64,000 nucleotides of DNA from an uncultured virus (IMG/VR IMGVR_UViG_2882072473_000006) (lineage: Duplodnaviria; Heunggongvirae; Uroviricota; Caudoviricetes): the IMG/VR virus record IMGVR_UViG_2882072473_000006; one strand, given 5' to 3'. Under the pieces are notes generated by a model. It was not told where the DNA came from, did not search any database, and saw only the letters and a list, made by a program, of their open reading frames with translations. Below, piece by piece: positions 35,862-59,334 of the stretch. Numbering within the stretch: position 1 is the stretch's first letter; every line of letters starts with the position of its first letter. The position numbers and the translations under genes are program-made.

Positions 35862-36758
35862 GTGAGTTACCAATACGATTTATATTTACAAAAGCACAAG
35901 GCCAACGTGAAAAAGGGTTTTGACTGGCTTCAGACTAACATGCCCTGGCTCTTTGAGGGGAAACCGGACGCTGCTTGGCAGACCGAGTTCGAGCATGATG
36001 CGTCCAAATCAAAGCCGGATGAGTACGAGGCCTATGACGCTTATTTCTATGGAGGCAACCGCTCCTATGCTGTTGTCCAGGCGTTCCAAAGAGCCTGGCT
36101 CCTGCACATCCACCGCAATCCCCATCACTGGCAGCACTGGGTTCTAATCAACGATGACCCCGGTGAAGGCGAAGTCCTGCTGGAGATGCCTTACAATTAT
36201 ATTATTGAGATGATCTGCGACTGGTGGGCCTTCAGCTGGGCGGAAGGTAATCTGAGCGAGATCTTCTCGTGGTATGATGAACATAAGGACTATATCAAAC
36301 TGAACCCGAAGACCCGCGAAACCGTGGAAGATATTCTCTGGGAACTCCGGGGCCGGCTTGGATTTAATGTCCTTGCTCATCATGGCGTCAAAGGTCAGAA
36401 GTGGGGCGTTCGTAATGGGCCGCCGTATCCGCTTGATAAAACCGGGAAGTCTGATACAATAGTGACAAAAACCATCAAAGGACACACTGCTCCTTCTAAG
36501 CGAGATGAACCGGACAGTGTTGTCGACCATGTTACTTCTGACAGTAGCGTTAAAACTCGTGCCTTTTATGACGGCGATGGTTGGAAAGTAAAGGAGATAC
36601 ACACAACCGATCACGGAAACCCAAAACACCATTCGTATGGAAGTCATGGCGAGCACATTCATTATTATGAGTGGGATCGTGAAACCGGAAAACGAATTAG
36701 TAGCACTCAGGAAGAGATACCGGAGGATTTAAGGAAGGAGAATGATGATATTTTATGA
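35862..36758 (+). CDS. HD-like (DUF5662-like) domain, HHGVKGQKWGVR tag and His-rich putative nuclease toxin domain
   Basis: HD.SK...H...NPHH...EM.CDW; internal tag at 36378; C-terminal DHGNPKHH..G.HGEHIH. Confidence 0.7.
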   Translation: MSYQYDLYLQKHKANVKKGFDWLQTNMPWLFEGKPDAAWQTEFEHDASKSKPDEYEAYDAYFYGGNRSYAVVQAFQRAWLLHIHRNPHHWQHWVLINDDPGEGEVLLEMPYNYIIEMICDWWAFSWAEGNLSEIFSWYDEHKDYIKLNPKTRETVEDILWELRGRLGFNVLAHHGVKGQKWGVRNGPPYPLDKTGKSDTIVTKTIKGHTAPSKRDEPDSVVDHVTSDSSVKTRAFYDGDGWKVKEIHTTDHGNPKHHSYGSHGEHIHYYEWDRETGKRISSTQEEIPEDLRKENDDIL

Positions 36759-36991
36759 CTTTAGAAGAGTTTGTAGCGATTCTGAGCGATGAGTATGCCA
36801 CGGCCGAGTTTGAGTATAATGGACAACAATGTGGCGTAGAGCCGCAAACTCAGGATTCAGAGACCACTTATACTATGTGGTATGGCGAGGTGTGGAAAGA
36901 CTACGACAACATTGACGATCTTCTTTCGGACGACTTCTTCGATGGACGCCCCCTTCGTGATATTTTCGATTCGGTTGACGTGCAGTTCTAA
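36755..36991 (+). CDS. Small acidic protein, putative immunity protein
   Basis: ATGA-coupled to the toxin-like gene; very acidic. Confidence 0.65.
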   Translation: MTLEEFVAILSDEYATAEFEYNGQQCGVEPQTQDSETTYTMWYGEVWKDYDNIDDLLSDDFFDGRPLRDIFDSVDVQF

Positions 36992-37042
36992 CTCATGATT
37001 TAACGAGCATTAGTCTGAACCGGAAGGTGAAAAGGAGTTCGC

Positions 37043-37201
37043 ATGGTTAAAAAGTATGACAAAGTCCGCCTGAAGGACGGAAGGACAGCAACCATTGTCG
37101 AGGTCTTGGAGGAAGGCGTTGCCTATCTGGCCGATATTGACTTACCCGGTCCTGATTGGGATACGGAGGAGATTCGCCAGGAAGACATCGAAGAGGATTG
37201 A
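37043..37201 (+). CDS. 52-aa protein, possible orphan immunity
   Basis: AAAGGAG RBS; MVKKYDKVRLKDGRTATIVEV... Confidence 0.6.
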   Translation: MVKKYDKVRLKDGRTATIVEVLEEGVAYLADIDLPGPDWDTEEIRQEDIEED

Positions 37202-37213
37202 TATTTGAACGCT

Positions 37214-37372
37214 ATGAAAGTACGCTGGAAAGGCGAAACCGAGTTCCTGATGCTTACACACGATAAAGTTTATACCGTTCTTGGCATGGAAAAGGGTTGG
37301 TATAGGCTGGTCGACGACAGCGGTGAAGATTATCTGTACCCTCCTGAGAACTTCGAGATCGTGGAAGAGTAA
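37214..37372 (+). CDS. 52-aa protein, possible orphan immunity
   Basis: MKVRWKG...WYRLVDDSGEDYLYPPENFEIV. Confidence 0.62.
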   Translation: MKVRWKGETEFLMLTHDKVYTVLGMEKGWYRLVDDSGEDYLYPPENFEIVEE

Positions 37373-37423
37373 TTATATTTATGAGCCTTTAGAGTTCTAA
37401 GCCCACAGGAAAGGAGAAAAACT

Positions 37424-38626
37424 GTGATAACAATTCAAGGGCAATACAACACTGCTATTTGCTACACCAATGAGCTGGAAGGAGCGGCTCGGGAGCAGAT
37501 TCAAGCTGTTTGTGACCGGCCTGAGTTTGCAGGCTGTAAAATCCGCATTATGCCCGATGTCCATGCGGGTAAAGGCTGTACCATCGGCACCACTATGACC
37601 ATTCAGGACAAGATCGTCCCCGGTATGGTAGGCGTGGATATTGGCTGTGGTATGGAAACTGTGGAACTGGCCGAACGCGAGATTGACTTCGCCAAGCTGG
37701 ATGCGCTGATTCGGGAGAAGATTCCCTACGGCCGAGAAATCCGCGATATTCCCCATCCTCTCAATTCGGAAATCGACTTGACCCAGCTCCGTTGTGCCGA
37801 CCAGGTCAATCTTGACCGAGCAGTTCACAGCATCGGCTCTTTGGGAGGCGGTAACCACTTTATTGAGGTAGACCAAGCCGGGGACGGGCGGCTGTTTCTC
37901 GTGATTCACTCCGGGAGCCGACATCTCGGAACGGAAGTGGCCGACTATTATCAAAACGAAGGCCGCCTGGCACTCTGGGGCGGAGCCCGTCATCAGATTC
38001 AGGAGACCATTGCCCAGTTGAAAGCGGAGGGGCGTTTCCAGGAAATTCAGAAGACCATTACGGCGCTGAAGAAAGAGCACGTGTTGGATATTCCGAAAGA
38101 CCTGGCCTATGTGGAGGGTAAGTTGTTCGACGACTACATCCACGACATGAAGTTGACCCAGCGCTTCGCCGTTCTGAACCGAAAAGCTATGGCGGACATC
38201 ATCGTGTCCGGGATGGGATTCACGATTACGGACGAATTCACCACCATCCATAATTATATTGATACGGACGCCATGATCCTTCGCAAAGGCTCCGTTTCTG
38301 CCAAAGCTGGCGAAAAGCTGCTCATCCCCATCAACATGCGTGACGGAAGCCTGATCTGCATTGGCAAGGGAAATGAAGAGTGGAACTGCTCCGCTCCGCA
38401 TGGCGCGGGAAGACTGATGAGCCGGCGAGCTGCGCTCAATACGTTGTCTATGGAAACCTTCCGGTCGGAAATGGAAGGCATCTATACGACCTGTGTGGTG
38501 CCGGATACGTTGGACGAATCTCCCATGGCGTATAAGGGCATGGATGAGATTATCGCACAAATCGGCCCCACAGCGGACATTGTGGAGCGTATTCGCCCGG
38601 TCTACAACTTCAAAGCCTCGGATTAA
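37424..38626 (+). CDS. rtcB: RtcB family RNA ligase
   Basis: MPDVH.G, VGVDIGCG, GGGNHFIE, HSGSR, HNY, HGAGR..SR, DESP.AYK. Confidence 0.95.
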   Translation: MITIQGQYNTAICYTNELEGAAREQIQAVCDRPEFAGCKIRIMPDVHAGKGCTIGTTMTIQDKIVPGMVGVDIGCGMETVELAEREIDFAKLDALIREKIPYGREIRDIPHPLNSEIDLTQLRCADQVNLDRAVHSIGSLGGGNHFIEVDQAGDGRLFLVIHSGSRHLGTEVADYYQNEGRLALWGGARHQIQETIAQLKAEGRFQEIQKTITALKKEHVLDIPKDLAYVEGKLFDDYIHDMKLTQRFAVLNRKAMADIIVSGMGFTITDEFTTIHNYIDTDAMILRKGSVSAKAGEKLLIPINMRDGSLICIGKGNEEWNCSAPHGAGRLMSRRAALNTLSMETFRSEMEGIYTTCVVPDTLDESPMAYKGMDEIIAQIGPTADIVERIRPVYNFKASD

Positions 38627-38704
38627 ACAAAATACGAAAAAAAAGAATGCCTCGAATTGTGTAACAGCAGTTCGGGGCATTTATATTTTCTGGAAAGGAG
38701 CGAC

Positions 38705-38929: not shown

Positions 38930-38952
38930 TATTTTGAAAAGGAGAAAACACC

Positions 38953-39999: not shown

Positions 40000-40102
40000 A
40001 AAATGGTTGGGATGATATTCTAAGGTTCATCTTCAACTCGGTCGCTGTTCTGGCCATCCTCGGCGTTCTATTCCTTGTAAAACTTCTGTTCGACTTTTTG
40101 AG

Positions 40103-40607: not shown

Positions 40608-40626
40608 TATTTTGAAGGGAGGACAC

Positions 40627-46083: not shown

Positions 46084-48804
46084 ATGAACCCCATCGCGGA
46101 AGATATTTTGATGCACTATGGCGTCAAGCGGCGCTCTGGGCGCTACCCCTGGGGTTCTGGTGAAAACCCCTATCAGCATGGCGGCGACTTTCTGGCCAGA
46201 GTGGAAGAACTCGAAGCCATGGGAAAGAGCCAAAAAGAAATTGCCGAAGAACTGAAGATGTCCACTACTGACCTTCGTATGCAGGTTCGGGTGGCAAAGC
46301 ATGAGCGACGGGCTCTCCAGGCGGAACGGGCCAAGTCCCTTCGTGAAGAAGGAAAGACTCTCGATGAGATTGCCAAAATCATGGGGTACAACAACGACTC
46401 CTCGGTTCGTGCGCTTCTCAATGAAAACACCGCCAGCAACAAGAACAAGGCCCTTGCTACCGCCGAGGCATTGAAGAAAGAGCTGGCAGTAAAAGGGGCT
46501 CTTGATGTTGGCGAGGGCGTAGAGCAGCAGCTTGGCGTCTCGAAAGGAGTTCTTCAGGAAGCTCTGTTCATTTTGGAAACAGAAGGTTATAACCGATATG
46601 GCGTTGGAGTCCCTCAGGTGAACGATCCCAAGAAGCGGACAATCACTCCGGTTATTTCGGTTCCCGACATCGAGCAGAGAGACGCCTACCAGAACCTCGA
46701 CATCATCAAGTCGGTGGGCGACTATCACTCTTCGGATGGAGGCGCATCCTGGGATAAGCGCGAGTATCCGGCAAGCATCGATTCAAGCCGAGTCAAGGTG
46801 CTCTATGGGGATGAGGGCGGCTCGAACAAGGACGGAGTCATTGAAATTCGTCGTGGCGTTGCAGACCTTGACCTGGGAAACGCTCACTATGCGCAGGTAC
46901 GCATTCTTGTGGATGGGACGCATTACCTCAAGGGCATGGCCATGTATTCTGATGACATGCCGGAGGGGTGTGACATCGTGTTTAACACGAACAAGCACTC
47001 CGGAACGCCCAAGATGGATGTATTCAAAAAGATTCAGGATGACCCAGACAATCCTTTCGGCGCATTCATCAAGGCCAACGGTCAGAGCTACTACCCCGAC
47101 CCGAATGGCAAGTACACAGACCCGATTACCGGCGAGAAAAAATCTTTGTCGGCCATCAATAAGCTGAAGGAGGAGGGTGACTGGGACAAGATGAGTAAGA
47201 ACTTGTCCTCCCAGTTCCTATCCAAGCAGCCCATCAAACTGATCCAGAAGCAGTTGGATTTGACCTATGCCGATGCGGCCGATGAATTCGCCGAGATTTG
47301 CTCTCTGAACAACCCGACTATCAAGCGGAAGCTTCTTATGGACTTTGCAGATGAATGTGATTCTGCCGTCGTCCATCTGAAAGCGGCCGCCCTCCCCCGG
47401 CAGAGCACACAGGTCATCCTGCCTATCACAGCAATGAAGGAAACGGAAATCTATGCCCCCAACTATCGTAACGGTGAGAAAGTTGTGCTGATCCGCTACC
47501 CTCATGGCGGAACCTTTGAAATTCCGGAGTTGACGGTCAACAACAAGAATCAGTCGGCCATCTCCGTTCTCGGCAAGAACATCAGGGATGCGGTCGGCAT
47601 CAACCCGAAGGTGGCGGAACGGCTGTCCGGCGCGGACTTTGATGGCGACCAGGTTGTTGTCATTCCTGTTGGCGGAAAGGTTTCTGTAAAATCTACCCCC
47701 GCCCTGGAGGGGTTGAAAGGTTTCGACCCTAAAACGGAATACTCCACCGAGGGGAAGACCGGTATCCGGCTTCTCTCAAAAGAAGCCACCCAGATCGAGA
47801 TGGGGAAGATTTCCAACCTCATCACCGATATGACCTTAAAAGGGGCCCCCACCGAGGACATCACGAAAGCTGTCAGACACAGCATGGTCGTCATCGATGC
47901 GGCAAAGCACAAACTCGACTACAAGCGTTCGGAGATTGAAAACGACATCCCCACCCTTCGTAAGCGGTGGCAGGGTTACACTGACCCCGAAACCGGCAAA
48001 GAGAAAGGTGGTGCCTCCACCCTGCTTTCCAGGCGCAAGCAGACCGTCGATGTTCCCGAGCGTCAGGGCAGTGGACGCATTGACCGGGAGACTGGCGAAG
48101 TCGTCTATAAGGAGTCTGGTCGAACCTATATAGACCCTAAGACTGGGAAAACAGTTCAGGCCACGACGAAGATCAAGTTGCTGGAGAAAACCAAGGATGT
48201 TCGCACCTTGTCCTCTGGCACCGTTCAGGAAGATGCCTATGCCGACTATGCCAATCGTATGAAAGCACTCGCCAACCAGGCGAGACTTGAGTATCTGGAT
48301 ACGCCGACATTGGTACGGAACGCCAGCGCAGCAAAAACATATGCGCCTGAAGTCGCAAGGCTGACCAGTGCACTGAAGACTGCGCAGCTTAACGCCCCTA
48401 AGGAACGTGAGGCCCAGCGCATCGCCAATGCTCAGGTAAAGGCCAAGGTTCAGGCGAACAATGTCACCGACAAAGACGAAATCTCTAAGATTCGTCGTGC
48501 AGCGATCAGTGACGCTCGCGTTTCCACTGGTGCAAGCGGAAAAGGAACGCGCATTACGATCTCCGATGGAGAATGGGAAGCAATCCAAGCTGGCGCGATC
48601 TCTGATACAACCTTGAAAGAGATTCTTCGTTACTCTGATCCCGATGTCGTCCGGGAGCGCGCAACCCCAAGAGCATCGACGCAGCTGTCTGAAGCTCGTG
48701 TCAATCGCATTAAAGCGATGGCCAATTCTGGAAGCACCAACTCCGAAATTGCAGATGCTTTGGGCATTTCGCCTTCTGTCGTTTCCAAGTATCTCAATGA
48801 GTAA
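46084..48804 (+). CDS. Putative single-chain double-psi beta-barrel RNA polymerase (YonO/RdRP-like) with HTH domains
   Basis: DGVIEI, QVR..KGM, LSSQ, IRYPH, LSGADFDGD, GKISN and VIDAAK in RdRP order; two N-terminal and one C-terminal HTH. Confidence 0.75.
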   Translation: MNPIAEDILMHYGVKRRSGRYPWGSGENPYQHGGDFLARVEELEAMGKSQKEIAEELKMSTTDLRMQVRVAKHERRALQAERAKSLREEGKTLDEIAKIMGYNNDSSVRALLNENTASNKNKALATAEALKKELAVKGALDVGEGVEQQLGVSKGVLQEALFILETEGYNRYGVGVPQVNDPKKRTITPVISVPDIEQRDAYQNLDIIKSVGDYHSSDGGASWDKREYPASIDSSRVKVLYGDEGGSNKDGVIEIRRGVADLDLGNAHYAQVRILVDGTHYLKGMAMYSDDMPEGCDIVFNTNKHSGTPKMDVFKKIQDDPDNPFGAFIKANGQSYYPDPNGKYTDPITGEKKSLSAINKLKEEGDWDKMSKNLSSQFLSKQPIKLIQKQLDLTYADAADEFAEICSLNNPTIKRKLLMDFADECDSAVVHLKAAALPRQSTQVILPITAMKETEIYAPNYRNGEKVVLIRYPHGGTFEIPELTVNNKNQSAISVLGKNIRDAVGINPKVAERLSGADFDGDQVVVIPVGGKVSVKSTPALEGLKGFDPKTEYSTEGKTGIRLLSKEATQIEMGKISNLITDMTLKGAPTEDITKAVRHSMVVIDAAKHKLDYKRSEIENDIPTLRKRWQGYTDPETGKEKGGASTLLSRRKQTVDVPERQGSGRIDRETGEVVYKESGRTYIDPKTGKTVQATTKIKLLEKTKDVRTLSSGTVQEDAYADYANRMKALANQARLEYLDTPTLVRNASAAKTYAPEVARLTSALKTAQLNAPKEREAQRIANAQVKAKVQANNVTDKDEISKIRRAAISDARVSTGASGKGTRITISDGEWEAIQAGAISDTTLKEILRYSDPDVVRERATPRASTQLSEARVNRIKAMANSGSTNSEIADALGISPSVVSKYLNE

Positions 48805-49525: not shown

Positions 49526-49864
49526 GTGGCAAAACCCATCAAGTCTTCCGGCAGTCAGGCAGGGAAACGCCGCGCCGCCTTGACGCCGGAGGGCCGCGAG
49601 AACCAACTGATCGACCTGGCGGTATCTCTTGTGGAAAAGCGGCTGCTGGAAGGGACCGCCTCCTCTCAGGAGGTCACCACCATCCTGAAGCTGGGGACCA
49701 CGAGGGCCCGCCTTGAGAATGAGCGGCTGGCCAAGGAGGTGGAGCTGGTCCAGGCCAAGACCGAGGCTTATAAATCCGGAGTCCGGATGGATGAGCTTTA
49801 CGAGAAGGCCATGGCCGCGTTCAAGCGATACAGCGGACAGGAGGAGGACGAGGATGAGTATTAG
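49526..49864 (+). CDS. Hypothetical protein, candidate terminase small subunit
   Basis: First gene of the packaging module; helical, about 112 aa. Confidence 0.6.
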   Translation: MAKPIKSSGSQAGKRRAALTPEGRENQLIDLAVSLVEKRLLEGTASSQEVTTILKLGTTRARLENERLAKEVELVQAKTEAYKSGVRMDELYEKAMAAFKRYSGQEEDEDEY

Positions 49865-50270
49865 GTGCTACTCCGAGCTGATCCAACTCCCCACCTTCCT
49901 GGACCGCTATCAGTACCTCCGTCTGGATGGCGTTGTCGGAGAGGAGACCTTCGGCTTTGACCGGTATATGAATCAGGCTTTTTACAAGTCGCCGGAGTGG
50001 CGGCGGGTGCGTGACGCGGTGATCGCCCGGGACCTGGGGTGTGATTTGGGTGTGGCCGGACGGGAGATATTCCGCCGTCCCATCATTCACCACATGAACC
50101 CCATCAGTCCAAAGGACATCCGGGATCGGGTGGAGATGATCCTCGACCCGGAGTACCTGATCACCACCATCCACGAAACTCATCTGGCCATTCACTACGG
50201 CGATGAGAACCTGCTGCTTCCGGAGCCGGTCGTACGAAGGCCCAACGACACCTGCCTCTGGAAAATGTAG
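49854..50270 (+). CDS. HNH endonuclease
   Basis: FY.S.EW...R..VI.RD..C...IHH.NP...L.....TH..IH. Confidence 0.8.
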   Translation: MSIRCYSELIQLPTFLDRYQYLRLDGVVGEETFGFDRYMNQAFYKSPEWRRVRDAVIARDLGCDLGVAGREIFRRPIIHHMNPISPKDIRDRVEMILDPEYLITTIHETHLAIHYGDENLLLPEPVVRRPNDTCLWKM

Positions 50271-50781: not shown

Positions 50782-51165
50782 ATGGAGATCACAGAAAGCG
50801 TCCTGACATCTGTCAAGAAACTGCTGGGGATCGACGAAGGCTACACGCACTTTGACGCCGACATTGTAATGCACATCAACAGCGTGTTTTCGATTCTGAC
50901 ACAGATGGGGGTCGGGCCGGCAAACGGATTCTCCATTACGGGGAAAGACGAAGGCTGGTCCGATTTCATTTCTGGCGGGGCCGTCCTGCCCCTGGTCAAA
51001 TCTTATGTCGGCCTGAAGGTGCGCCTGCTGTTTGACCCGCCCCTCAGCTCTGCGGCCGTCGAGTCTATGAACCGGCAGATCAGCGAGTTTGAGTGGCGGC
51101 TTTTCGTTGCGGCAGACCCAGTCGAACCCACCAGCGGGAAGGAGGAACTTCAAAATGGAGCATGA
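50782..51165 (+). CDS. Putative head-tail connector protein
   Basis: SVL.SVKK.LGI...FD.DI..HIN...FDPP; location in the virion module. Confidence 0.65.
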   Translation: MEITESVLTSVKKLLGIDEGYTHFDADIVMHINSVFSILTQMGVGPANGFSITGKDEGWSDFISGGAVLPLVKSYVGLKVRLLFDPPLSSAAVESMNRQISEFEWRLFVAADPVEPTSGKEELQNGA

Positions 51166-51670
51166 TGCATTACTGCACTACGGAATCAAAGGAATGAAGT
51201 GGGGCGTGCGCCGTTACCAGAACAAGGACGGTTCGCTGACCCCCAAAGGAGAGGCGCGCTACGACCGTGACAAGCGGGAGAACGCGGCCAAGAAGAAGGA
51301 AAACCGGATTGACCTCTCCCAGCCTGATCCGAAGCGCTGGGCAAAGGAGGACCTGGAGCGCACCAAGCGCACCGTGGACGCCAGCGCCAACCTGGCCAAG
51401 GAGCTGAAGAAGCTGGACGAGAGCACCACTTCCAAGCCGACACCAAAGCGGATGGACCTGTCCAAGATGAGCGACAAGGAGATGCGGGATCAGATTAACC
51501 GGGAGCTGCTGGAACGGCAGTATAACCAGCTGTTCGCGGAAGTGCCTGCCGCTCAGGTCTCCAAGGGCCGCGAAGCGCTCAAGACCACGCTGGAAGTTGC
51601 CGGCAGCGTTCTGGCCATTGGCAGCAGCGCACTGGGCATCGCGTTGGCCATCAAGGAACTGAAGGGCTGA
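51155..51670 (+). CDS. HYGxKGMKWGVRR-tagged protein
   Basis: N-terminal LLHYGIKGMKWGVRRYQN. Confidence 0.8.
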   Translation: MEHDALLHYGIKGMKWGVRRYQNKDGSLTPKGEARYDRDKRENAAKKKENRIDLSQPDPKRWAKEDLERTKRTVDASANLAKELKKLDESTTSKPTPKRMDLSKMSDKEMRDQINRELLERQYNQLFAEVPAAQVSKGREALKTTLEVAGSVLAIGSSALGIALAIKELKG

Positions 51671-51681: not shown

Positions 51682-52566
51682 ATGGAGCTGCGCCACCACG
51701 GCATTTTGGGCCAGAAATGGGGCGTGCGCAACGGCCCGCCCTATCCATTGAGCGGCGGTGACTATACTCCGTCCCAGCGGAAGGCCATTTCCAACAAACG
51801 CAAAAGCGGCAACAGCATCTACAACAAGAAGCACTTCGATGAGGTGCTGAAGGTTGATAAGACCACGCTGAGCACGCTGTCCTATGATAAGGACCGGACC
51901 AAGAACGCCGATATGTTCTACGCCACCCACCATGCTCTGGATAAACACCAGTACAACGCCCTGTTCAACCGGCCGATTCCCCAGACGGTCTATGATAAGG
52001 ATGGAAAGGCGATCGGCACAGGTTCGTTCATGAAGTACCGGATCGACAATTCCCTCAAGACCGACCTGAAGGTGGCCAGCGAGGATTCCGGAGCCAAGGT
52101 CTTTATGGACCTCTATAAGAAGGACCGGGATTTCTACAACTTTGTCACTGACCGGGAGCGGATGCAGGGGTACTTTGTAAACGACAAGTACAAGTTCAAG
52201 GGCTACCGCGAAGCAGCGGCCGTCCTTGGGAAGATGCGGGAGCCGGACTACAAGCCGACCTCCGATGACCTTCAGACCGTGTACCGGATGTTCAACTACG
52301 TCATCCCCTATGACGGTCAGGGCGACAGCCGAAAGGGACGCGATATGTATAACCAGCGCACCAAGTTCTTCCATGCGTGCAAGGAGGCCGGTTATGGCGC
52401 AGTTCTGGACACGAACGACGCCATATACGGCGGGTTCAAGGCCAAGTCACCCATTATCGTGTTCGATATGGAGCAGGTGGTCCCGAAAGACGTCTACCGC
52501 ACAAATCTGACGGATCAGAAGTTTTCCACTCTGGTCCTGGTCGGCCGGAAGCTGCTGGGCTTGTAA
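51682..52566 (+). CDS. HHG-tagged protein with possible ART-like C-terminus
   Basis: N-terminal LRHHGILGQKWGVRNGPPYPL; C-terminal GYGAVLD.ND...SPIIVFD. Confidence 0.78.
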   Translation: MELRHHGILGQKWGVRNGPPYPLSGGDYTPSQRKAISNKRKSGNSIYNKKHFDEVLKVDKTTLSTLSYDKDRTKNADMFYATHHALDKHQYNALFNRPIPQTVYDKDGKAIGTGSFMKYRIDNSLKTDLKVASEDSGAKVFMDLYKKDRDFYNFVTDRERMQGYFVNDKYKFKGYREAAAVLGKMREPDYKPTSDDLQTVYRMFNYVIPYDGQGDSRKGRDMYNQRTKFFHACKEAGYGAVLDTNDAIYGGFKAKSPIIVFDMEQVVPKDVYRTNLTDQKFSTLVLVGRKLLGL

Positions 52567-52584: not shown

Positions 52585-54333
52585 ATGTTATCCAACACCG
52601 CCGTCCCCCGTTATTATGGAGCATTTCGGGACGCCGTTCTCCGAGGGGATATTCACGTCTGCAAGGAAGTGGCGATGGAGATGTGGCGGATCGACCGCCT
52701 GATCGAGTCACCGGGATATTACTACGATGACCGGGCGGTGGAGGGATGGATTGAGTTCTGCGAGAACGAGCTGACCCTAACTGATGGCTCCGACCTGCAT
52801 CTTCTGGATACCTTCAAGCTCTGGGGCGAACAGGTGTTTGGATGGTACTATTTCGACGACCGCTCTGTCTATGTGCCGAACCCGGATGGACGGGGCGGCC
52901 GGTATGTGACGAAGCGGGTCAAGCAGCGGCTGACCAAGAAGCAGTACCTCATTGTGGGAAGAGGCGCGGCCAAGTCCCTCTACGACTCCTGCATCCAGGC
53001 CTATTTCTGTGTGGTGGACGGCTCGACGACCCATCAGATCACGACGGCCCCCACCATGAAGCAGGCGGAGGAGATCGTCAACCCCATCAAGACCGCCATC
53101 ACCAGAGCGAGAGGCCCTGTGTTTCAGTTCATGACCGAGGGTTCCTTGCAGAACACCACCGGCTCCAGAGCCAACCGCGTCAAGCTGGCCTCTACAAAGA
53201 AGGGGATCGAGAACTTCATCTCCGGCTCCCTGGTGGAGGTCCGTCCCATGTCGGTGGACAAGCTCCAGGGACTCCGCTGCAAAGTGGCCACGGTGGATGA
53301 GTGGCTTTCTTCGGCGGACGCCCGGGAGGATGTCATCGGTGCCATTGAGCAGGGCGCATCCAAGCTGGACGACTACCTGATCATCGCCACCAGCTCCGAG
53401 GGCACGGTCCGAAACGGAGCGGGCGATACCATCAAAATGGAGCTGATGAACATTCTTCAGGGTATCGGCCCTCCCCAGGAGCACGTGTCCATCTGGTGGT
53501 ACAAGCTGGACTCCGTGGAAGAGGTCGCCTATCCGGGCATGTGGATCAAGGCAAACCCCAATCTGGGAAAGACCGTGACCTACGAGACCTACCAGAAGGA
53601 CGTTGACCGGGCAGAAACGGCCCCCGCCACCCGCAACGATATGCTGGCAAAGCGGTTCGGGCTGCCCATGGAGGGCTACACCTACTACTTCACCTATGAG
53701 GAGACTCTCCCCCATCGCCGGCAGAGATTTTGGCAGATGCCCTGCTCCCTGGGGGCAGACCTTTCCCAGGGCGACGACTTCTGCTCCTTTACCTTCCTGT
53801 TTCCTCTTCGGGATGGCTCCTTTGGCGTCAAGACCCGAAACTACATCACATCGCTGACCCTGCACAAGCTGCCGGCGGCCATGCGGGTGAAGTATGAGGA
53901 CTTCATGGCGGAGGGGAGCCTGATCGTCATGGAGGGTACTGTTCTGGACATGATGCAGGTCTACGATGACCTGGACGAGCACATCATCAACCGGGGCTAT
54001 GACGTGCGCTGCTTTGGCTACGACCCATACAACGCCCAGGAGTTCATCAAGCGGTGGACAGATGAAAACGGCCCCTTCGGCGTAGAAGTGGTCCGACAGG
54101 GTTCCCGGACGGAATCTGTCCCTCTGGGCGAGCTGAAAAAGCTGGCCGGAGAGCGTATGCTGCTCTTTGACGAGGAGCTGCTCACCTTCTCCATGGGAAA
54201 TTGCATCACCATGGAGGACACCAATGGAAACCGGAAGCTGCTGAAGAAACGGTCCGACCAGAAAATCGACGCTGTGGCGGCCATGATGGATGCGTATGTG
54301 GCCTATAAGCACAATCCAGAAGCATTTGAATAA
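52585..54333 (+). CDS. terL: Terminase large subunit
   Basis: GRGAAKS Walker A, VDE Walker B, GADLS and KID nuclease motifs. Confidence 0.92.
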   Translation: MLSNTAVPRYYGAFRDAVLRGDIHVCKEVAMEMWRIDRLIESPGYYYDDRAVEGWIEFCENELTLTDGSDLHLLDTFKLWGEQVFGWYYFDDRSVYVPNPDGRGGRYVTKRVKQRLTKKQYLIVGRGAAKSLYDSCIQAYFCVVDGSTTHQITTAPTMKQAEEIVNPIKTAITRARGPVFQFMTEGSLQNTTGSRANRVKLASTKKGIENFISGSLVEVRPMSVDKLQGLRCKVATVDEWLSSADAREDVIGAIEQGASKLDDYLIIATSSEGTVRNGAGDTIKMELMNILQGIGPPQEHVSIWWYKLDSVEEVAYPGMWIKANPNLGKTVTYETYQKDVDRAETAPATRNDMLAKRFGLPMEGYTYYFTYEETLPHRRQRFWQMPCSLGADLSQGDDFCSFTFLFPLRDGSFGVKTRNYITSLTLHKLPAAMRVKYEDFMAEGSLIVMEGTVLDMMQVYDDLDEHIINRGYDVRCFGYDPYNAQEFIKRWTDENGPFGVEVVRQGSRTESVPLGELKKLAGERMLLFDEELLTFSMGNCITMEDTNGNRKLLKKRSDQKIDAVAAMMDAYVAYKHNPEAFE

Positions 54334-54351: not shown

Positions 54352-54909
54352 ATGAAGCCCTATGAAAAGCCTCTCTCCCCGCAGGAGTACCTGATGCACT
54401 ACGGTGTCAAGGGTATGAAATGGGGCGTAAGACGCTACCAGAACTACGACGGTTCTTACACCCGCAAGGGTCTGGAACGGTATCGCAAAGCGGAGTCGGA
54501 CTACGAAACCGCTAAGTCGAAAGCAGACGAAACCAGGGCCGCCTACAAATCCGGTCAAGCTACCCGTCAGCAGGTCAAGGATGCCAAGAGCGCTGTTAAG
54601 ACCGAGAAGCGTAAAATGGAAAACGCTTATGAAAAGCTGAAAACCGACAAACTGGCCGATGAAGGAAAGAAGCTTTACCAGAGTGGAAAAACTATTTCGG
54701 GAAACACCCAAGCGACCTATTTGGCCGAGGGCGTTATCATTGCTGGAAGCACCGTGGTGTCCAGACTTCTCGCGAACCAACTGAACAACCAGGAGGTTGC
54801 CAATATTGCCGCATCGACCATCGCGATCGGCGGAACGATTGTCAATGGTTTACTGGCGGCAAAGACGAGCAGGGAGAACAAACGGCTGAGAGCGTACTAC
54901 GCCCACTAA
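54352..54909 (+). CDS. HYG-tagged protein with C-terminal hydrophobic helices
   Basis: LMHYGVKGMKWGVRRYQN. Confidence 0.8.
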   Translation: MKPYEKPLSPQEYLMHYGVKGMKWGVRRYQNYDGSYTRKGLERYRKAESDYETAKSKADETRAAYKSGQATRQQVKDAKSAVKTEKRKMENAYEKLKTDKLADEGKKLYQSGKTISGNTQATYLAEGVIIAGSTVVSRLLANQLNNQEVANIAASTIAIGGTIVNGLLAAKTSRENKRLRAYYAH

Positions 54910-54925
54910 GCGAAGGAGGAAAAGT

Positions 54926-55807: not shown

Positions 55808-55822
55808 AGAGGGAGGATAAAC

Positions 55823-56041: not shown

Positions 56042-56156
56042 TCCCATGGACCATGCCGCAGACTCTTAACCGGGTCTGCGGATTTTTTTATGCCCAAAAT
56101 TCAACACACAGAGCAACGACATAATTTCATCAAGCGCGGACTGGAGGTGAGAGATT

Positions 56157-57404
56157 ATGGAAATTGCATTTGGTTCCAGGCTGAAACATGCCTGGAACGC
56201 TTTTTTGGGTAACGAAACCTTTGGGTTCCGATACCCGCTTGGCCCAAGCTCCTCCTACCGTCCGGACCGGCCCATTTTCAGCCGGGGCAATGAGCGGTCC
56301 ATCATCACATCGGTCTACAACCGGATCGCGCTGGACGCGTCCTCCATCGCCATCCAGCACGCGAGGCTGGATGAGGACGGGCGGTTTACCGAGGTGATCG
56401 ACTCCTCGCTGAATTCCTGCTTGTCCCTGGAGGCGAATCTGGACCAGACCGGACGGGCCTTTATCCAGGACGTGGTCATGTCCATGCTGGACGAGGGCTG
56501 CGTGGCCATCGTGCCCACGGACACCGATATCGACCCGGAAAACGGCTCCTACAAAATCGAGAAGCTGCGGGTCGGCAAGGTCCTGGAATGGTATCCACAG
56601 CACGTAAAGCTGCGGGTCTATAACGAGCAGCGGGGTGAAAAGCAGGACATCATCCTGCCCAAGAGCACAGTGGCCCTGGTGGAGAACCCGTTCTTCGCAA
56701 TCATGAACGAGCCCAACTCCACCATGCAGCGGCTGATCCGGAAGCTGAACATTCTGGACGCCATCGACGAACAGAGCGGCTCCGGAAAGCTCAATCTGAT
56801 CATCCAGCTCCCCTACGTCATCAAGACGGAAGCGAGACGTCAACAGGCGGAAAAACGCCGTAGAGATATTGAGGAACAGTTGTCCGGCTCCAAGTATGGC
56901 GTCGCTTACACCGACGGCACGGAGCATGTGGTGCAGCTGAACCGGCCCATCGACAACAATCTGATGTCCCAGATTGAATACCTGACGAGTATGCTTTACA
57001 GCCAGTTGGGAATCACCCAGGGGATATTGGACGGCACTGCTGATGACCGGACGAAGCTGAACTACGACAACCGGACCATCGAACCCATCCTGTCCGCCAT
57101 TGTTGACGAAATGAAGAGGAAATTCCTCACCAAAACTGCTCGGTCACAGAAGCAGTCGATCCTGTTCTTCAGAGACCCGTTCAGGCTGGTGCCCATCAAC
57201 GACATCGCCGAAATCGCCGACAAGATGACTCGCAATGAGATCATGACCTCCAACGAGATCCGGCAGAAGATCGGTATGAAGCCGTCGAAGGACCCCAAGG
57301 CGGACGAGCTCCGGAACAGTAACCTAAGCGCCCCGAAAGGGGAGGGCGAACAGCCACCATCTGAATCCGAAGGAGGAAATGTTCAAAATGGATCTGAAGT
57401 TTGA
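56157..57404 (+). CDS. Portal protein
   Basis: Position between terminase and capsid; 415 aa; HK97-like T.NEIR...G C-terminus. Confidence 0.85.
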   Translation: MEIAFGSRLKHAWNAFLGNETFGFRYPLGPSSSYRPDRPIFSRGNERSIITSVYNRIALDASSIAIQHARLDEDGRFTEVIDSSLNSCLSLEANLDQTGRAFIQDVVMSMLDEGCVAIVPTDTDIDPENGSYKIEKLRVGKVLEWYPQHVKLRVYNEQRGEKQDIILPKSTVALVENPFFAIMNEPNSTMQRLIRKLNILDAIDEQSGSGKLNLIIQLPYVIKTEARRQQAEKRRRDIEEQLSGSKYGVAYTDGTEHVVQLNRPIDNNLMSQIEYLTSMLYSQLGITQGILDGTADDRTKLNYDNRTIEPILSAIVDEMKRKFLTKTARSQKQSILFFRDPFRLVPINDIAEIADKMTRNEIMTSNEIRQKIGMKPSKDPKADELRNSNLSAPKGEGEQPPSESEGGNVQNGSEV

Positions 57405-59334
57405 CTTTAGTGGCTGGGCTACCCGAAACGATCTTGTCTGCGCTGATGGGCGAACCATTCGCCACAACGCATTCGAGCATTGCGACGGGAAGACGGTTCC
57501 TCTTGTTTGGAACCACCAGCACAACGAACCCACCAACATCCTGGGCCACGCCCTCTTGGAGAACCGCAAGGACGGCGTCTATGCATACTGCACGTTCAAC
57601 GAGAGTGAGAGCGGCAAAGCGGCCAAGGAGCTGGTGCAGCACGGGGACATTGTGTCCCTCTCCATCTATGCCAATGGGCTCCAGCAGACGCCGAACAAGG
57701 ACGTCATGCACGGCGACATCCGCGAGGTCAGCCTGGTAGTGGCCGGTGCGAATCCCGGCGCCTTCATTGACTTCGTGGACATGGCTCATGGGGAAGGCGG
57801 TGAGCAGGAGATGATCCTGTCCGCTTACGAGCCTATTTCCCTGTACCGTCCCGATGAGAAGCCCCCGCTGATCCACAAGGCCGATACCAAGGAGAAGCCT
57901 GATGACAAGCCCAACGCGGGCGAAGACGGGGACAAACCTAAGGATGGCGATAAGTCCAAGGGCAAAGAGAAGCCCGAGGACGAGGAGACCATCGAGGATG
58001 TTGTCAACACCATGAACGAGAAGCAGAAGAAGGTCATGTACGCTTTGATTGCTGCCGCCGCGGAGCAGGTGAACGACAACGCCGAGGATGACGAGGAAGA
58101 GGACCCCGATGACCCCGACAACAAATCCGACAAATCTAAGGGAGGAAACAAGACCATGAAGCACAATGTGTTCGACACTGAAGACACTCAGGACACCGTT
58201 CTGAGCCACTCCGACTGCGCTGACATTCTTGCTCTGGCCAAGAGCAGCAGCGTGGGTAGCCTTCGGACTGCTCTGAAGATCTACGCTGATCAGAACGAAC
58301 TCAAGCACGGCATCGACAACATCGAGAGCCTGTTCCCCGACTACAAGGATCTGCGCCCCGGCGCTCCTGAGCGGGTCGCTCGTGACCAGGGCTGGGTGAG
58401 CGTTGTCATGCGCAAGGTTCACAAGAGCCCCATCAGCCGCATCCGCACCCGCCAGGCGGACACCCGCAAGGACAGTATCCGGGCCCACGGCTATCAGAAG
58501 GGCAAGCGTAAGCAGCTCTCCGGCAACATGAACGTCATCACCCGGACCACCGATCCCCAGACCGTGTACCGCACCGATGCCCTGCACCGGGACGACATCA
58601 TCGACATCACCGATTTCGATGTGGTGGAGTACCAGTACGCCGTTATGCGGGAGAACATCAATGAAGATGTCGCTACCGCCATCATGGTGGGCGATGGCCG
58701 TGAGCCGGATGATGAGATGAAGATTTCCGAGGATCACATCCGCTCCATTTGGAACGACAACGACCTCTACACCATCCACTACGACGTGGACATCGAGGCC
58801 GCCAAGGCCGAGCTCCAGGGCAGCAAGACCAGCATGAGCTTCGGCGAGAACTATATCTATGCTGAGGCAGTCATCGCCGCCGCCCTCTATGCCCGTGAGA
58901 AGTACAAGGGCACCGGCACCCCCGATTTCTTCTGCACGCCCCATATGGTCAACGTGATGCTGCTGGCCCGGGACATGAACGGCCGCCGCATTTACACCTC
59001 CAAGGCCGACCTGGCCGCCGCCCTGAATGTGGGCGAGCTCTACACTGCCGAGCAGTTTGAGGGTCTGGTGCGCATGGATGACGAGGGCCACAAGCACAAG
59101 CTGCTGGGCATCTTCGTCAACCTGACCGACTACACCGTGGGCTCCACCAAGGGCGGCGAGATCGCCCGGTTCGACCAGTTCGACATCGACTTCAACCAGC
59201 AGAAGTACCTGATCGAGACCCGGCTGTCCGGTGCTCTGACCCGCGTCTACTCCGCCATCGCTCTGGAGGAGCCCGTGGCTGCCTTCGCCTCCGGCGGTAC
59301 TGGCGGCGATGGCGGCGGGGCCGGCACTCCCTGA
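57388..59334 (+). CDS. Prohead protease-major capsid protein fusion
   Basis: N-terminal DFSGWA...VPLVWNH...EVSLV..GANP; acidic linker; capsid-sized C-terminal part. Confidence 0.85.
   Translation: MDLKFDFSGWATRNDLVCADGRTIRHNAFEHCDGKTVPLVWNHQHNEPTNILGHALLENRKDGVYAYCTFNESESGKAAKELVQHGDIVSLSIYANGLQQTPNKDVMHGDIREVSLVVAGANPGAFIDFVDMAHGEGGEQEMILSAYEPISLYRPDEKPPLIHKADTKEKPDDKPNAGEDGDKPKDGDKSKGKEKPEDEETIEDVVNTMNEKQKKVMYALIAAAAEQVNDNAEDDEEEDPDDPDNKSDKSKGGNKTMKHNVFDTEDTQDTVLSHSDCADILALAKSSSVGSLRTALKIYADQNELKHGIDNIESLFPDYKDLRPGAPERVARDQGWVSVVMRKVHKSPISRIRTRQADTRKDSIRAHGYQKGKRKQLSGNMNVITRTTDPQTVYRTDALHRDDIIDITDFDVVEYQYAVMRENINEDVATAIMVGDGREPDDEMKISEDHIRSIWNDNDLYTIHYDVDIEAAKAELQGSKTSMSFGENYIYAEAVIAAALYAREKYKGTGTPDFFCTPHMVNVMLLARDMNGRRIYTSKADLAAALNVGELYTAEQFEGLVRMDDEGHKHKLLGIFVNLTDYTVGSTKGGEIARFDQFDIDFNQQKYLIETRLSGALTRVYSAIALEEPVAAFASGGTGGDGGGAGTP

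What the first reader, a model, noticed from the sequence alone, without database searches (positions are those of the whole stretch)
35862..59334. Shared LxH-(H/Y)G tag on six proteins including the RNAP: possible capsid-loading and maturation signal
Seen: LAHHGVKGQKWGVR (internal, 36378), LMHYGVKRRSGRYPWG (RNAP N-terminus), LLHYGIKGMKWGVRR (51155), LRHHGILGQKWGVR (51682) and LMHYGVKGMKWGVRR (54352 and 54926), each followed by an unrelated C-terminal domain. Four flank the terminase. The protease-capsid fusion has similar LxH sites (LIHK, LSHS, LKHG) near its domain boundaries. Inference: the tag targets cargo into the head and LxH is the prohead protease site, so the RNAP and effectors would be injected with the DNA.
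Basis: partly seen in the sequence, partly recalled or inferred. Interest (0 to 1): 0.8.

Follow-up and report, generated by a model that had tools for sequence, protein, structure and literature searches.

The report
Shared cargo tag on phage proteins
A prophage of a gut Clostridiales bacterium puts one short peptide on five otherwise different small proteins and a variant of it on its own RNA polymerase; evidence from relatives suggests that this undescribed tag marks proteins that are loaded into the virus head and delivered with the DNA.

Summary
Six + strand ORFs carry L-x-H-[HY]-G-[VI]-x-G-x-K-W-G-V-R, which is Pfam DUF7211 (function unknown). The RNA polymerase (RNAP) carries a longer variant. 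Four tagged genes flank the terminase gene.

The tag belongs to one phage lineage of Actinobacteria and Firmicutes, defined by a protease-capsid fusion gene and a YonO-like RNAP. When contigs were picked by the tag alone, 33 of 34 with enough sequence held the fusion.

The capsid precursor has five conserved hydrophobic-x-His sites in its acidic, disordered spacer. Tagged proteins are basic (median pI 9.9). The known domains they carry (ADP-ribosyltransferase, GNAT, papain-like deamidase, 2H phosphoesterase) are the kinds other phages fuse to MuF or portal proteins.

In the depositors' record of Lactococcus phage 1706, the only two tag-bearing proteins, orf7 and the RNAP orthologue orf75, are both labelled "structural protein".

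Head loading and delivery is therefore the best reading (about 0.5). Cleavage after L-x-H is plausible but not shown: the flanks differ, the conserved part lies after the putative cut, and cargo does not avoid L-x-H.

No paper found names the motif, although 52,315 protein clusters carry it. This scan noted the same idea four times before on other DNA.

The parts
35835..36758 (+). DUF5662 domain protein with an internal tag (LAHHGVKGQKWGVR, nt 36372-36413, residues 180-193) followed by a 114-residue tail. It lies in the early/middle region, not the head module.
   Evidence: Pfam DUF5662 E 1.5e-36 and DUF7211 28.5 bits; coordinates
46084..48804 (+). YonO-like two-barrel RNA polymerase, 906 aa, catalytic GADFDGD at residues 516-522. 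It carries an N-terminal tag variant LMHYGVKRRSGRYPWGSG (nt 46108-46161).
   Evidence: phrog_4291 E=0. The motif is conserved in 17 of 17 distinct RNAP N-termini. Residues 1-34 have pLDDT<50 although invariant. The 1706 orthologue orf75 is labelled structural protein.
49713..50270 (+). HNH endonuclease of the packaging module
   Evidence: phrog_4321 E 3e-61
50782..51165 (+). Head-tail connector protein (like 1706 orf6)
   Evidence: phrog_4247 'virion structural protein' E 4e-46. The 1706 and Pepy6 counterparts hit Pfam Phage_connect_2.
51155..51670 (+). Tagged protein, 171 aa (tag nt 51170-51211). It is basic, has the conserved MSDKEMRDQINRELLERQY helix and a hydrophobic C-terminus. It belongs to the near-universal tagged family found upstream of TerL.
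   Evidence: DUF7211 41.9 bits; family comparison
51682..52566 (+). Tagged protein, 294 aa, tag subtype LRHHGILGQKWGVRNGPPYPL (nt 51688-51729). It ends 19 nt before TerL.
   Evidence: DUF7211 17.9 bits, below cut-off; tag HMM iE 3.9e-6; phrog_7502
52585..54333 (+). Terminase large subunit
   Evidence: Pfam TerL_nuclease E 1.8e-33 and TerL_ATPase
54352..54909 (+). Tagged protein, 185 aa (tag nt 54391-54432), with hydrophobic C-terminal segments
   Evidence: DUF7211 49.0 bits
54926..55807 (+). Tagged protein, 293 aa (tag nt 54965-55006), with a papain-fold glutamine-deamidase-like domain at residues 151-247
   Evidence: DUF7211 47.5 bits; Gln_amidase 23.6 bits, just under the 24.1 cut-off. Its C-domain is homologous to parts of proteins annotated MuF-like or VIP2-like toxin in actinophages.
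56157..57404 (+). Portal protein
   Evidence: Pfam Phage_portal E 2.7e-17
57379..59334 (+). Protease-spacer-capsid precursor, 651 aa. S78 protease is about residues 10-121. An acidic disordered spacer (123-273) contains a scaffold-like helix (205-233). The HK97-fold capsid domain is about 315-632. Conserved hydrophobic-x-His sites: MAH137, LIH166, MKH262, LSH277, LKH310 (nt 57781-57789, 57868-57876, 58156-58164, 58201-58209, 58300-58308).
   Evidence: Peptidase_S78 25.7 bits; phrog_3270; AF2 model; Foldseek hits to HK97-fold capsids, HK97 1ohg TM 0.72; site conservation

Best explanation
DUF7211 is most likely an address tag for proteins that travel inside the phage head.

Shown:
- A 24-residue motif (L-x-H-[HY]-G-[VI]-x-G-[MQ]-K-W-G-[VI]-R-[RK], often continued by Y-Q-N-x-D-G-[ST]-L-T) heads small, very basic proteins encoded around the terminase and portal genes.
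- A variant of the motif heads the phage's YonO-like RNA polymerase.
- The motif is confined to the phage lineage whose capsid is made as a protease-spacer-capsid fusion.

Inferred:
- During procapsid assembly the basic tag and cargo dock on the strongly acidic spacer/scaffold part, or on the protease domain, that every capsid subunit carries.
- The S78 prohead protease then cuts the spacer, and probably the leader of each cargo module, after hydrophobic-x-His. This parallels T4 gp21 cutting after L/I-x-E.
- The acidic fragments leave and DNA enters. The basic cargo stays and is ejected with the DNA. That cargo comprises a near-universal membrane-type protein, variable effectors (deamidase-like, GNAT, ADP-ribosyltransferase, 2H phosphoesterase) and the RNA polymerase.

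My odds:
- Tagged proteins are virion components: about 0.75.
- The tag is the loading signal: about 0.55.
- L-x-H is the cleavage site in the tags: about 0.4.
- The RNAP is delivered and transcribes early genes: about 0.45.
For: (1) Position. In 63 of 73 loci that hold the TerL start with 700 nt or more upstream, a tagged ORF ends within 200 nt of TerL. Further tagged ORFs lie between TerL and portal.

(2) Lineage specificity. A tag-first DNA scan gave 51 distinct contig groups. Fifty have a TerL, portal, fusion or RNAP homologue. Of the 34 groups with 6 kb or more downstream, 33 have the fusion. In cultured phages the fusion (244 records) and the RNAP (251 records) occur in the same genera.

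(3) Virion evidence. In GenBank EU081845.1 the depositors label 11 of 76 CDS 'structural protein'. Predicted functions there carry 'putative' and the rest are 'unknown'. Phage 1706 has two tag-bearing proteins: orf7 with two DUF7211 tags (Pfam E 6.9e-11) and orf75, the RNAP orthologue (38% identity over 984 columns; phrog_4291 E=0). Both are among the 11.

(4) Cargo types. Of 115 non-redundant tagged ORFs scanned, 3 carry GNAT, 4 a Gln_amidase(-like) domain, 1 ADPrib_exo_Tox, 1 a 2H phosphoesterase and 1 a portal plus GNAT. These are the effector types reported fused to MuF or portal (PMC5512222, passages). Arthrobacter phage Prairie gp4, annotated MuF-like and encoded next to the portal gene, has the same Gln_amidase domain.

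(5) Charge match. Of 126 tagged proteins, 115 have pI above 9. The spacer from H137 to H277 has negative net charge in 61 of 61 sequences, median -24.

(6) L-x-H in the precursor. Five of 27 conserved columns in the spacer are His, against 5 of 191 elsewhere (Fisher p 0.003). [LIM]xH occurs 258 times in the spacer against 45 expected from shuffles, while [LIM]x(E/K/Q/N) are at or below expectation. The sites lie in or at the edges of low-pLDDT segments.

(7) The tag behaves as a free linear motif. RNAP residues 1-34 are invariant across 16 sequences yet have pLDDT 31-38.

(8) Polyproteins. The 150 best of 52,315 matching clusters carry 2 to 5 tags. The first tag is N-terminal in 135 of 150, and the spacing (median 222 aa) equals the size of single-tag proteins. 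This is what processing at each tag would allow.
Against: - No experiment on the tag was seen. The 1706 paper could not be read, so the method behind 'structural protein' is only recalled (SDS-PAGE plus mass spectrometry).
- Beyond L and H, the capsid sites do not share the tag's flanks. Flank-only PSSM scores are H310 -11.7 and H277 -13.3, against controls -18.4 +/- 4.8, and all are negative.
- The conserved part of the tag lies C-terminal to the putative cut, unlike the T4 targeting sequence, which is removed.
- Cargo outside the tags shows no avoidance of [LIM]xH: 52 observed, 48 expected.
- Conserved [LIM]xH also occurs in folded parts of the portal and the protease domain.
- The DUF5662-tag gene (35835-36758) lies among early/middle genes.
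- Contig L143 has a tag in another gene context.
- Two loci with 7 kb or more upstream show no tag (L049, L061).
- 1706 orf62 and orf71 are labelled structural without a tag.
- The shuffle z-scores are inflated because the sequences are related.
Confidence: 0.5

Rival explanations
1. The tag is only a processing site or module delimiter. The prohead (or another) protease cuts polyproteins and leaders at each tag. Loading into the head depends on something else, for example the bulk positive charge of the cargo against the acidic spacer.
For: Multi-tag proteins have regular spacing. Tags sit between domains in the DUF5662, 2H-phosphoesterase and portal-GNAT proteins. L078:1338-2231 looks like a run-on of two neighbouring tagged genes. 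Cargo is basic and the spacer acidic.
Against: A cut site does not need 20 or more conserved residues on the P' side. Single-tag proteins carry the tag at the very N-terminus, where a cut would remove only 5 to 25 unconserved residues. The flanks of the capsid sites differ from the tag.
Confidence: 0.15
2. The tag is a docking peptide for another virion part (portal, tape measure or tail channel, or the DNA itself) that orders proteins for ejection. The L-x-H is part of that binding motif and is never cut.
For: G, W, G and H are invariant in the style of a folded or binding motif. Crude transmembrane-like segments occur in 49 of 126 tagged proteins, as expected of channel-forming ejection proteins. 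One contig fuses the portal to tag-GNAT. Cargo does not avoid L-x-H.
Against: It does not explain the near-perfect link with the protease-capsid fusion (33 of 34). It also does not explain why the same hydrophobic-x-His is the recurrent conserved element of the capsid spacer. The portal fusion is a single contig.
Confidence: 0.15
3. The tag acts in the infected cell rather than in the virion. It could be a short motif that binds a common host or phage partner, such as a membrane insertion factor, a chaperone or a protease adaptor. In that case virion detection in 1706 would be incidental.
For: One tagged gene lies outside the late module (35835-36758). L143 has a tag among cell-wall hydrolase genes. 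The hosts are all Gram-positive.
Against: Both tag-bearing 1706 proteins are labelled structural. The genes are embedded between connector, terminase, portal and capsid genes in about 100 loci. The same effector domain is found in a protein annotated MuF-like in another phage.
Confidence: 0.1
4. This rival concerns the RNAP only. The polymerase is an ordinary early enzyme made after infection. Its N-terminal L-x-H-Y-G...W-G is a functional part of the enzyme, or a motif for meeting the tagged proteins, and not a loading tag.
For: Pfam does not call DUF7211 on the RNAP, and the variant has a 4-residue-longer loop. In linear actinophage genomes the gene lies at the extreme right end, a place that could enter the cell first. 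The window's phage is temperate, with an integrase at 2197-3426.
Against: 1706 orf75 is labelled structural protein. The motif is invariant but predicted disordered and not packed on the enzyme. The gene is on the same strand directly upstream of the head module.
Confidence: 0.3

Closest known systems
Phage T4 capsid targeting sequences on IPI-III and Alt, removed by prohead protease gp21 at L/I-x-E (PMC9026906, passages read)
   Same: A short N-terminal leader sits on unrelated, basic head-internal proteins, which include an ADP-ribosyltransferase. The leader contains the same hydrophobic-x-X motif that recurs in the scaffold or capsid precursor. The cargo set varies between relatives.
   Different: There is no sequence similarity. 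The protease family is S78 (HK97 type), not T4 gp21. P1 would be His, not Glu. The conserved part lies after the putative cut and would stay on the cargo. The hosts are Gram-positive and the phages siphoviruses. Nothing has been shown experimentally.
MuF- or portal-fused effectors and polyvalent proteins (Iyer et al. 2017, PMC5512222, passages read)
   Same: The effector repertoire is the same (ART, GNAT, 2H phosphoesterase, papain-like peptidase or deamidase). The genes lie beside the portal and terminase genes. Multi-module proteins occur. Delivery with the DNA is inferred in both.
   Different: No MuF domain was found in the window's tagged proteins. The common element is a 24-residue peptide rather than a folded head protein. 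Modules are each preceded by the peptide.
Virion RNA polymerases: N4 vRNAP; tape-measure-fused RNAP of Thermus phage P23-45 (PMC10770324, search listing and abstract only); crAss-like phage virion RNAP (recalled)
   Same: A phage-encoded RNAP is carried in the particle. Here that rests on the 1706 orf75 annotation. It has the two-barrel DxDGD catalytic motif, as in the YonO and crAss types.
   Different: It is a 906-aa stand-alone enzyme with HTH domains, in a partly temperate siphovirus lineage. It is proposed to be loaded through a peptide tag shared with other cargo. Its activity and role in early transcription are untested.
Encapsulin cargo-loading peptides and the HK97 protease C-terminal tail that binds the capsid delta domain (both recalled)
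   Same: A short peptide directs cargo to the inside of an HK97-fold shell during assembly.
   Different: Those peptides are C-terminal and unrelated in sequence. The receptor for DUF7211 is unknown.
Pfam PF23847 (DUF7211), function unknown
   Same: It is the same motif. Four of the six window copies pass the curated cut-off.
   Different: Pfam gives no function. The RNAP variant and the 51682 copy fall below the cut-off.

Membership tests
Pfam DUF7211 (PF23847) | HMM score at or above the gathering cut-off of 27 bits | tested here: met
   Scores are 49.0, 47.5, 41.9 and 28.5 bits for ORFs 54352, 54926, 51155 and 35835. ORF 51682 scores 17.9 bits and the RNAP has no hit, so those two are variants below the cut-off.
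T4-type capsid targeting sequence system | Short N-terminal leader shared by otherwise unrelated head-module proteins | tested here: met
   In 176 of 193 tags the His lies within 40 residues of the upstream in-frame stop. The genes flank TerL and portal.
T4-type capsid targeting sequence system | The leader carries the prohead protease cleavage motif that also cuts the scaffold or capsid precursor | tested here: inconclusive
   Hydrophobic-x-His is shared and strongly enriched in the spacer. However, the flanks differ, and no cleavage data exist.
T4-type capsid targeting sequence system | Tagged proteins are present in purified virions | tested here: inconclusive
   1706 orf7 and orf75 are labelled 'structural protein' by the depositors. 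The paper was not readable.
T4-type capsid targeting sequence system | The leader is sufficient to package a foreign protein | not testable with these tools
   This needs a tag-reporter packaging assay.
T4-type capsid targeting sequence system | Homology to the T4 leader and to the gp21 protease | tested here: not met
   The protease domain hits Peptidase_S78, the HK97 type. The tag's consensus is unlike the T4 leader as described in PMC9026906.
MuF-fused effector / polymorphic toxin systems | MuF (SPP1 gp7-like) head domain in the same protein | tested here: not met
   No MuF family appears among the Pfam hits of the six window proteins or of 115 tagged ORFs.
MuF-fused effector / polymorphic toxin systems | C-terminal effector domains of the ART, GNAT, 2H or papain-like kinds, encoded beside the portal gene | tested here: met
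   The same Gln_amidase domain is present in Prairie gp4, annotated MuF-like.
Virion-packaged RNA polymerases | RNAP catalytic two-barrel motif DxDGD | tested here: met
   GADFDGD is at residues 516-522. phrog_4291 E=0. The motif was reported for this group in bioRxiv 10.1101/842583 (passages).
Virion-packaged RNA polymerases | The enzyme is found in the particle and transcribes early genes | tested here: inconclusive
   The only evidence is the 'structural protein' label of the 1706 orthologue. There are no activity data.
HK97-type capsid assembly (S78 protease + HK97-fold capsid protein) | S78 protease domain and HK97 fold | tested here: met
   Peptidase_S78 scores 25.7 bits against a cut-off of 21. 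Foldseek top hits are HK97-fold capsids, E about 1e-11 to 1e-9.

The most novel reading that the evidence does not exclude
DUF7211 is a portable 'load and inject' address used by a very large group of siphoviruses of Gram-positive bacteria. Each capsid subunit brings its own receptor, namely the fused protease domain and acidic spacer, and the tag docks there as a (pseudo)substrate. Cutting after His frees a basic G-x-K-G-M-K-W-G-x-R-R N-terminus. That N-terminus stays with the DNA and leads the proteins out through the tail. One of these proteins is a YonO-type RNA polymerase that starts phage transcription independently of the host enzyme. If so, N4-like virion transcription would be common in actinophages and gut Firmicutes phages.
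Probability: 0.2. Interest if true: 0.85.

Novelty: new variant of a known kind. Interest (0 to 1): 0.7.

Why it matters
Loading of proteins into phage heads through a short leader is well worked out only for T4 and its giant relatives. Here a different, unrelated tag appears to serve an HK97-type lineage. That lineage includes hundreds of cultured actinophages, Lactococcus 1706-like phages and gut Firmicutes prophages.

The motif is very common: 52,315 clusters at 50% identity match it at E<=0.001. Yet no paper in the held library names it.

If the reading holds, it would do four things:
- Name the function of a large family of 'hypothetical' head-module genes.
- Point to a set of injected effectors and a virion RNA polymerase in siphoviruses.
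- Give a His-specific cleavage rule for an S78 protease.
- Offer a compact tag for packing foreign proteins into phages of Gram-positive hosts.

It is cheap to test, because many members are in culture collections.

Tried and rejected
- Flank similarity between tag and capsid sites: not found.
- Avoidance of [LIM]xH in mature proteins: the capsid domain shows 35 against 54 expected, but other motifs deviate as much. Cargo shows no avoidance (52 against 48). So this test is not informative.
- Portal N-terminal R-L-K-H-A-W-N as a cleavage site: the His is kept in only 39 of 57 sequences, so it was rejected as evidence.
- Portal-tag-GNAT fusion (L092): it is a single contig, and an internal Met lies 12 residues before the tag. 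It is treated as an anecdote.
- Sequence search of PDB with the fusion profile, the DUF5662 protein and the 294-aa protein: nothing found.
- Literature: 'DUF7211' gave 0 papers. The motif strings and PF23847 gave one unrelated paper. Searches for virion proteomics of Pepy6 or 1706 found nothing usable. Summer et al. 2011 and Garneau et al. 2008 are not held.
- Promoter and terminator scan of 43-57 kb: counts were near shuffle expectation and were not used.
- Chance or low complexity as the explanation of the motif: rejected.
- Type VII secretion WXG-type signal: considered from memory and rejected, because the tag has W-G, not W-x-G, and the genes sit in the head module.

Full report
**What is there.**
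The window is a prophage of a gut Clostridiales bacterium. A 100% identical capsid gene lies in 'Clostridiales bacterium CCNA10' and in a human-gut MAG. The gene order is as follows.

| Feature | Position |
|---|---|
| Integrase | 2197-3426, minus strand |
| Replication genes | about 20-46 kb |
| YonO-like RNA polymerase | 46084-48804 |
| HNH endonuclease | 49713-50270 |
| Connector protein | 50782-51165 |
| Two tagged genes | 51155-51670 and 51682-52566 |
| Terminase large subunit | 52585-54333 |
| Two tagged genes | 54352-54909 and 54926-55807 |
| Portal | 56157-57404 |
| Protease-spacer-capsid fusion | 57379-59334 |
| Tail genes | after 59334 |

**The motif is a catalogued family of unknown function.**
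Pfam calls it DUF7211 (PF23847). Four copies pass the cut-off and the 51682 copy is below it. The RNAP copy is not called. It has a four-residue-longer loop (LMHYGVKRRSGRYPWGSG).

From 163 distinct copies the consensus is [DN]-[EYF]-L-x-H-[HY]-G-[VI]-x-G-[MQ]-K-W-G-[VI]-R-[RK]-[YF]-Q-N-x-D-G-[ST]-L-T. L is present in 149, H in 162, both G and W in 162-163.

A tag HMM built from 14 copies was run over the six-frame translation of 106 sources (1.67 Mb). It gave 198 strong and 19 weak hits, every one on the strand of the capsid gene. The motif is not a chance or composition effect.

**It belongs to one phage lineage.**
Relatives of the capsid fusion occur in 244 cultured-phage records and relatives of the RNAP in 251. 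The genera are the same: Arthrobacter 95, Gordonia 55, Streptomyces 54, Lactococcus 13, Curtobacterium 7, Rhodococcus 4, Microbacterium 4, Faecalibacterium 2. This is the Actinobacteria/Firmicutes supercluster described in bioRxiv 10.1101/842583. I read passages of that preprint: it identifies the RNAP-like protein but says nothing on a tag or on packaging.

Rhodococcus phage ReqiPepy6 has eight tagged ORFs around TerL. FP_oengus has one plus the RNAP variant. Perkunas, Truckee and LibertyBell have 3 to 5.

It gave 51 distinct contig groups of 3 kb or more.
- Fifty hold a homologue of the window's TerL, portal, fusion or RNAP.
- Of the 34 groups with at least 6 kb downstream of the last tag, 33 hold the fusion.
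- The exceptions are L169 (rearranged) and L143, where an internal tag sits among DUF6353 and cell-wall hydrolase genes.

**Where the tag sits.**
In 176 of 193 copies the His lies within 40 residues of the upstream in-frame stop, so the tag must be N-terminal. About ten copies are internal.

In 63 of 73 loci that hold the TerL start, a tagged ORF ends within 200 nt of it. This near-universal member has three parts: the tag, a conserved helix (S-x-x-E-L-R-x-R-x-N-R-L-x-x-E-x-Q-Y) and a hydrophobic C-terminus. The window's 51155 ORF is of this type.

**What the tag is fused to.**
Tagged proteins are small (median 186 aa) and very basic (median pI 9.9; 115 of 126 above 9). By a crude test, 49 of 126 have a transmembrane-like segment.

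I scanned 115 of the 126 non-redundant tagged ORFs with Pfam. Nine of the other eleven were scanned, and two short ones were not scanned. Most have no family besides DUF7211. The rest carry the following:
- GNAT acetyltransferase (3)
- Gln_amidase or Gln_amidase_like (4)
- ADP-ribosyltransferase exoenzyme (1)
- 2H phosphoesterase N-terminal to the tag (1 here, plus Pepy6 gp013)
- DUF6883 (1)
- a portal-tag-GNAT fusion in one contig

The window adds a deamidase-like domain (23.6 bits, just under the cut-off) and DUF5662.

These are the effector kinds that Iyer et al. report fused to MuF or portal domains and interpret as deployed from the capsid (PMC5512222, passages). The C-domain of the window's 293-aa protein finds proteins annotated MuF-like minor capsid protein or VIP2-like toxin in Arthrobacter and Mycobacterium phages. 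Prairie gp4, annotated MuF-like and encoded just after the portal gene, has Gln_amidase at 392-491. So the same payload rides on MuF in some phages and on DUF7211 here.

**The capsid precursor.**
AlphaFold (56-sequence alignment, mean pLDDT 73.7) gives this layout:
- a confident protease domain, residues 10-121
- a disordered stretch, 123-203
- a helix pair, 205-233
- disorder, 232-273
- two helices, 277-305
- a capsid domain, about 315-632

Foldseek matches the capsid domain to HK97-fold capsids.

In 61 non-redundant homologues the spacer is otherwise poorly conserved. It nevertheless keeps hydrophobic-x-His at five places:

| Site | Kept in |
|---|---|
| H137 | 61 of 61 |
| [LI]-x-H-[SA] near residue 157 | 56 of 61 |
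| M-K-H262 | 48 of 61 |
| [LI]-x-H277 | 59 of 61 |
| [LI]-x-H310 | 61 of 61 |

- Five of 27 conserved spacer columns are His, against 5 of 191 elsewhere (Fisher p 0.003).
- [LIM]xH occurs 258 times in the spacers against 45 expected from shuffles, while [LIM]x(E, K, Q, N) are at or below expectation.
- These z-scores are inflated by relatedness, but the direction is clear.
- The spacer is acidic in all 61 sequences (median net charge -24).
- In some relatives the protease and the scaffold-plus-capsid part are separate ORFs, which is the HK97 arrangement.

**Evidence that tagged proteins are in the particle.**
The depositors' record of Lactococcus phage 1706 (EU081845.1) labels 11 of 76 CDS 'structural protein'. 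Predicted functions there carry 'putative' and the rest are 'unknown'.

orf7 has two DUF7211 copies. orf75 is the RNAP orthologue: 38% identity over 984 columns, phrog_4291 E=0, N-terminus ...SLQHYGTKRHSGRYPWGSG. These are the only tag-bearing proteins of 1706, and both are among the 11. If the labels fell at random the chance would be about 0.02 (my arithmetic: 11/76 x 10/75).

I could not read the paper. That the labels rest on gel bands and mass spectrometry is my recollection. The two other labelled proteins outside the late module (orf62, orf71) have no tag, so a tag is not needed for the label.

**The RNAP tag.**
All 17 distinct RNAP N-termini in my loci keep [DE]-[IV]-L-x-H-Y-G-x-[KP]-R-x-S-G-R-Y-P-W-G-S-G. 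In a 16-sequence alignment L9, H11, Y12, G13, S18-R20, P22 and G24-G26 are invariant. Yet AlphaFold gives residues 1-34 pLDDT 31-38 with no packing on the enzyme. High conservation with predicted disorder is typical of a peptide that binds a partner.

**Scale and polyproteins.**
A profile of 90 tag copies was run against 1.84 billion representative proteins. It matches 52,315 at E<=0.001, 22,428 at 1e-10 and 254 at 1e-30.

The best 150 carry 2 tags (81), 3 (41), 4 (26) or 5 (2). The first tag is N-terminal in 135. Spacing has median 222 aa (interquartile range 181-280). P3 is Leu in 377 of 390. Of 58 scanned with Pfam, two end in Gln_amidase and three hold GNAT.

In my own loci read with table 11, L078:1338-2231 is a run-on of two neighbouring tagged genes that keeps the second gene's Met and leader. 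Tags at the head of every module fit processing at each tag.

**How it most likely works.**
By analogy with T4, basic tagged proteins would join the acidic scaffold/spacer inside the procapsid. In T4 a 10-residue leader targets basic internal proteins and the ADP-ribosyltransferase Alt to the scaffold core, and gp21 cuts after L/I-x-E (PMC9026906, passages). Here the S78 protease would cut spacer and leaders after hydrophobic-x-His, and the cargo would leave with the DNA.

What is shown: motif, position, lineage link, charge pattern, conserved His sites, payload types, and the 1706 labels. What is inferred: docking, cleavage and ejection.

**What speaks against it.**
- Flank-only scoring shows that the capsid sites share nothing with the tag beyond L and H.
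- The conserved K-W-G-x-R-R part would remain on the cargo after the cut, unlike T4.
- Cargo does not avoid [LIM]xH.
- Conserved [LIM]xH also occurs in folded portal and protease regions.
- One tagged gene lies outside the late module.
- Two loci with ample upstream sequence lack a tag (L049, L061).
- The docking test could not be run.

**Novelty.**
The principle (leader-directed head cargo, MuF- or portal-borne effectors, virion RNAPs) is known. This tag, its link to a protease-capsid fusion lineage, a possible His-specific S78 cleavage rule and a tagged YonO-type RNAP are not in any paper I could find.

Four earlier notes of this scan reached the same idea on other DNA. I tested their central claim about L-x-H in the spacer independently. 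I add the tag-first co-occurrence test, the 1706 annotation, the polyprotein survey and the negative controls.

Noticed in passing
window:12662-13222 (+): A 187-aa ORF in the early region is 34% identical over 93 residues to RNAP residues 540-632, the segment just after the catalytic DFDGD (phrog_4291 E 1e-19). It is a stand-alone copy of one RNAP sub-domain. Its role is unknown.
   Followed up: partly
window:51155-51670 and the ORF just upstream of TerL in 63 of 73 loci: This near-universal tagged family has a conserved S-x-x-E-L-R-x-R-x-N-R-L-x-x-E-x-Q-Y helix and a hydrophobic C-terminus. It occupies the slot where a small terminase gene is usually found. No small terminase was recognised in the window.
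   Followed up: partly
L092:1536-3323: One viral contig encodes the portal, a DUF7211 tag and a GNAT acetyltransferase as one open frame. About 100 other portals end before the tag. It could be a real fusion or a lost stop codon.
   Followed up: partly
P0003 (1335 aa), P0005 (1569 aa) and 148 other representatives: These proteins have 2 to 5 DUF7211 tags spaced about 220 residues apart, like beads on a string. I did not check whether all are real under table 11.
   Followed up: partly
L143:9314-10264: An internal DUF7211 tag sits in a 317-aa protein among DUF6353 and cell-wall hydrolase genes. No TerL, portal, fusion or RNAP homologue lies in the 13.6 kb held.
   Followed up: partly
L124/L125, L151/L152, L158, L167: In these relatives the protease part and the scaffold-plus-capsid part match as two separate stretches or frames instead of one fusion. 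This could be a gene split or a frameshift.
   Followed up: no
window:48600-48801 (RNAP C-terminus): The C-terminal helix-turn-helix of the RNAP gives weak hits to small-terminase-type HTH families (phrog_7067 E 1.2e-5; in FP_oengus Pfam Terminase_5 E 0.012).
   Followed up: no
window:13156-14076, 14653-15450, 17525-18493; 15867-16256, 16259-16870: There are three paralogues of phrog_2152 and two of phrog_4079, both of unknown function, in the early region.
   Followed up: no
window:29332-30228, 37424-38623, 34638-35252: ADP-ribosylglycohydrolase, RtcB-type RNA ligase and MazG-like genes are present. They look like an RNA and ADP-ribose repair set of the kind phages use against host defence.
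   Followed up: no
window:56157-56200 (portal N-terminus): The portal N-terminus has a conserved R-L-K-H-A-W-N motif. The His is kept in only 39 of 57 homologues, so it is probably structural rather than a cleavage site.
   Followed up: yes
window:1-3426 (-): A transposase (4-987) and a tyrosine integrase (2197-3426) mark the left edge of the prophage, so this member of the lineage is temperate.
   Followed up: no
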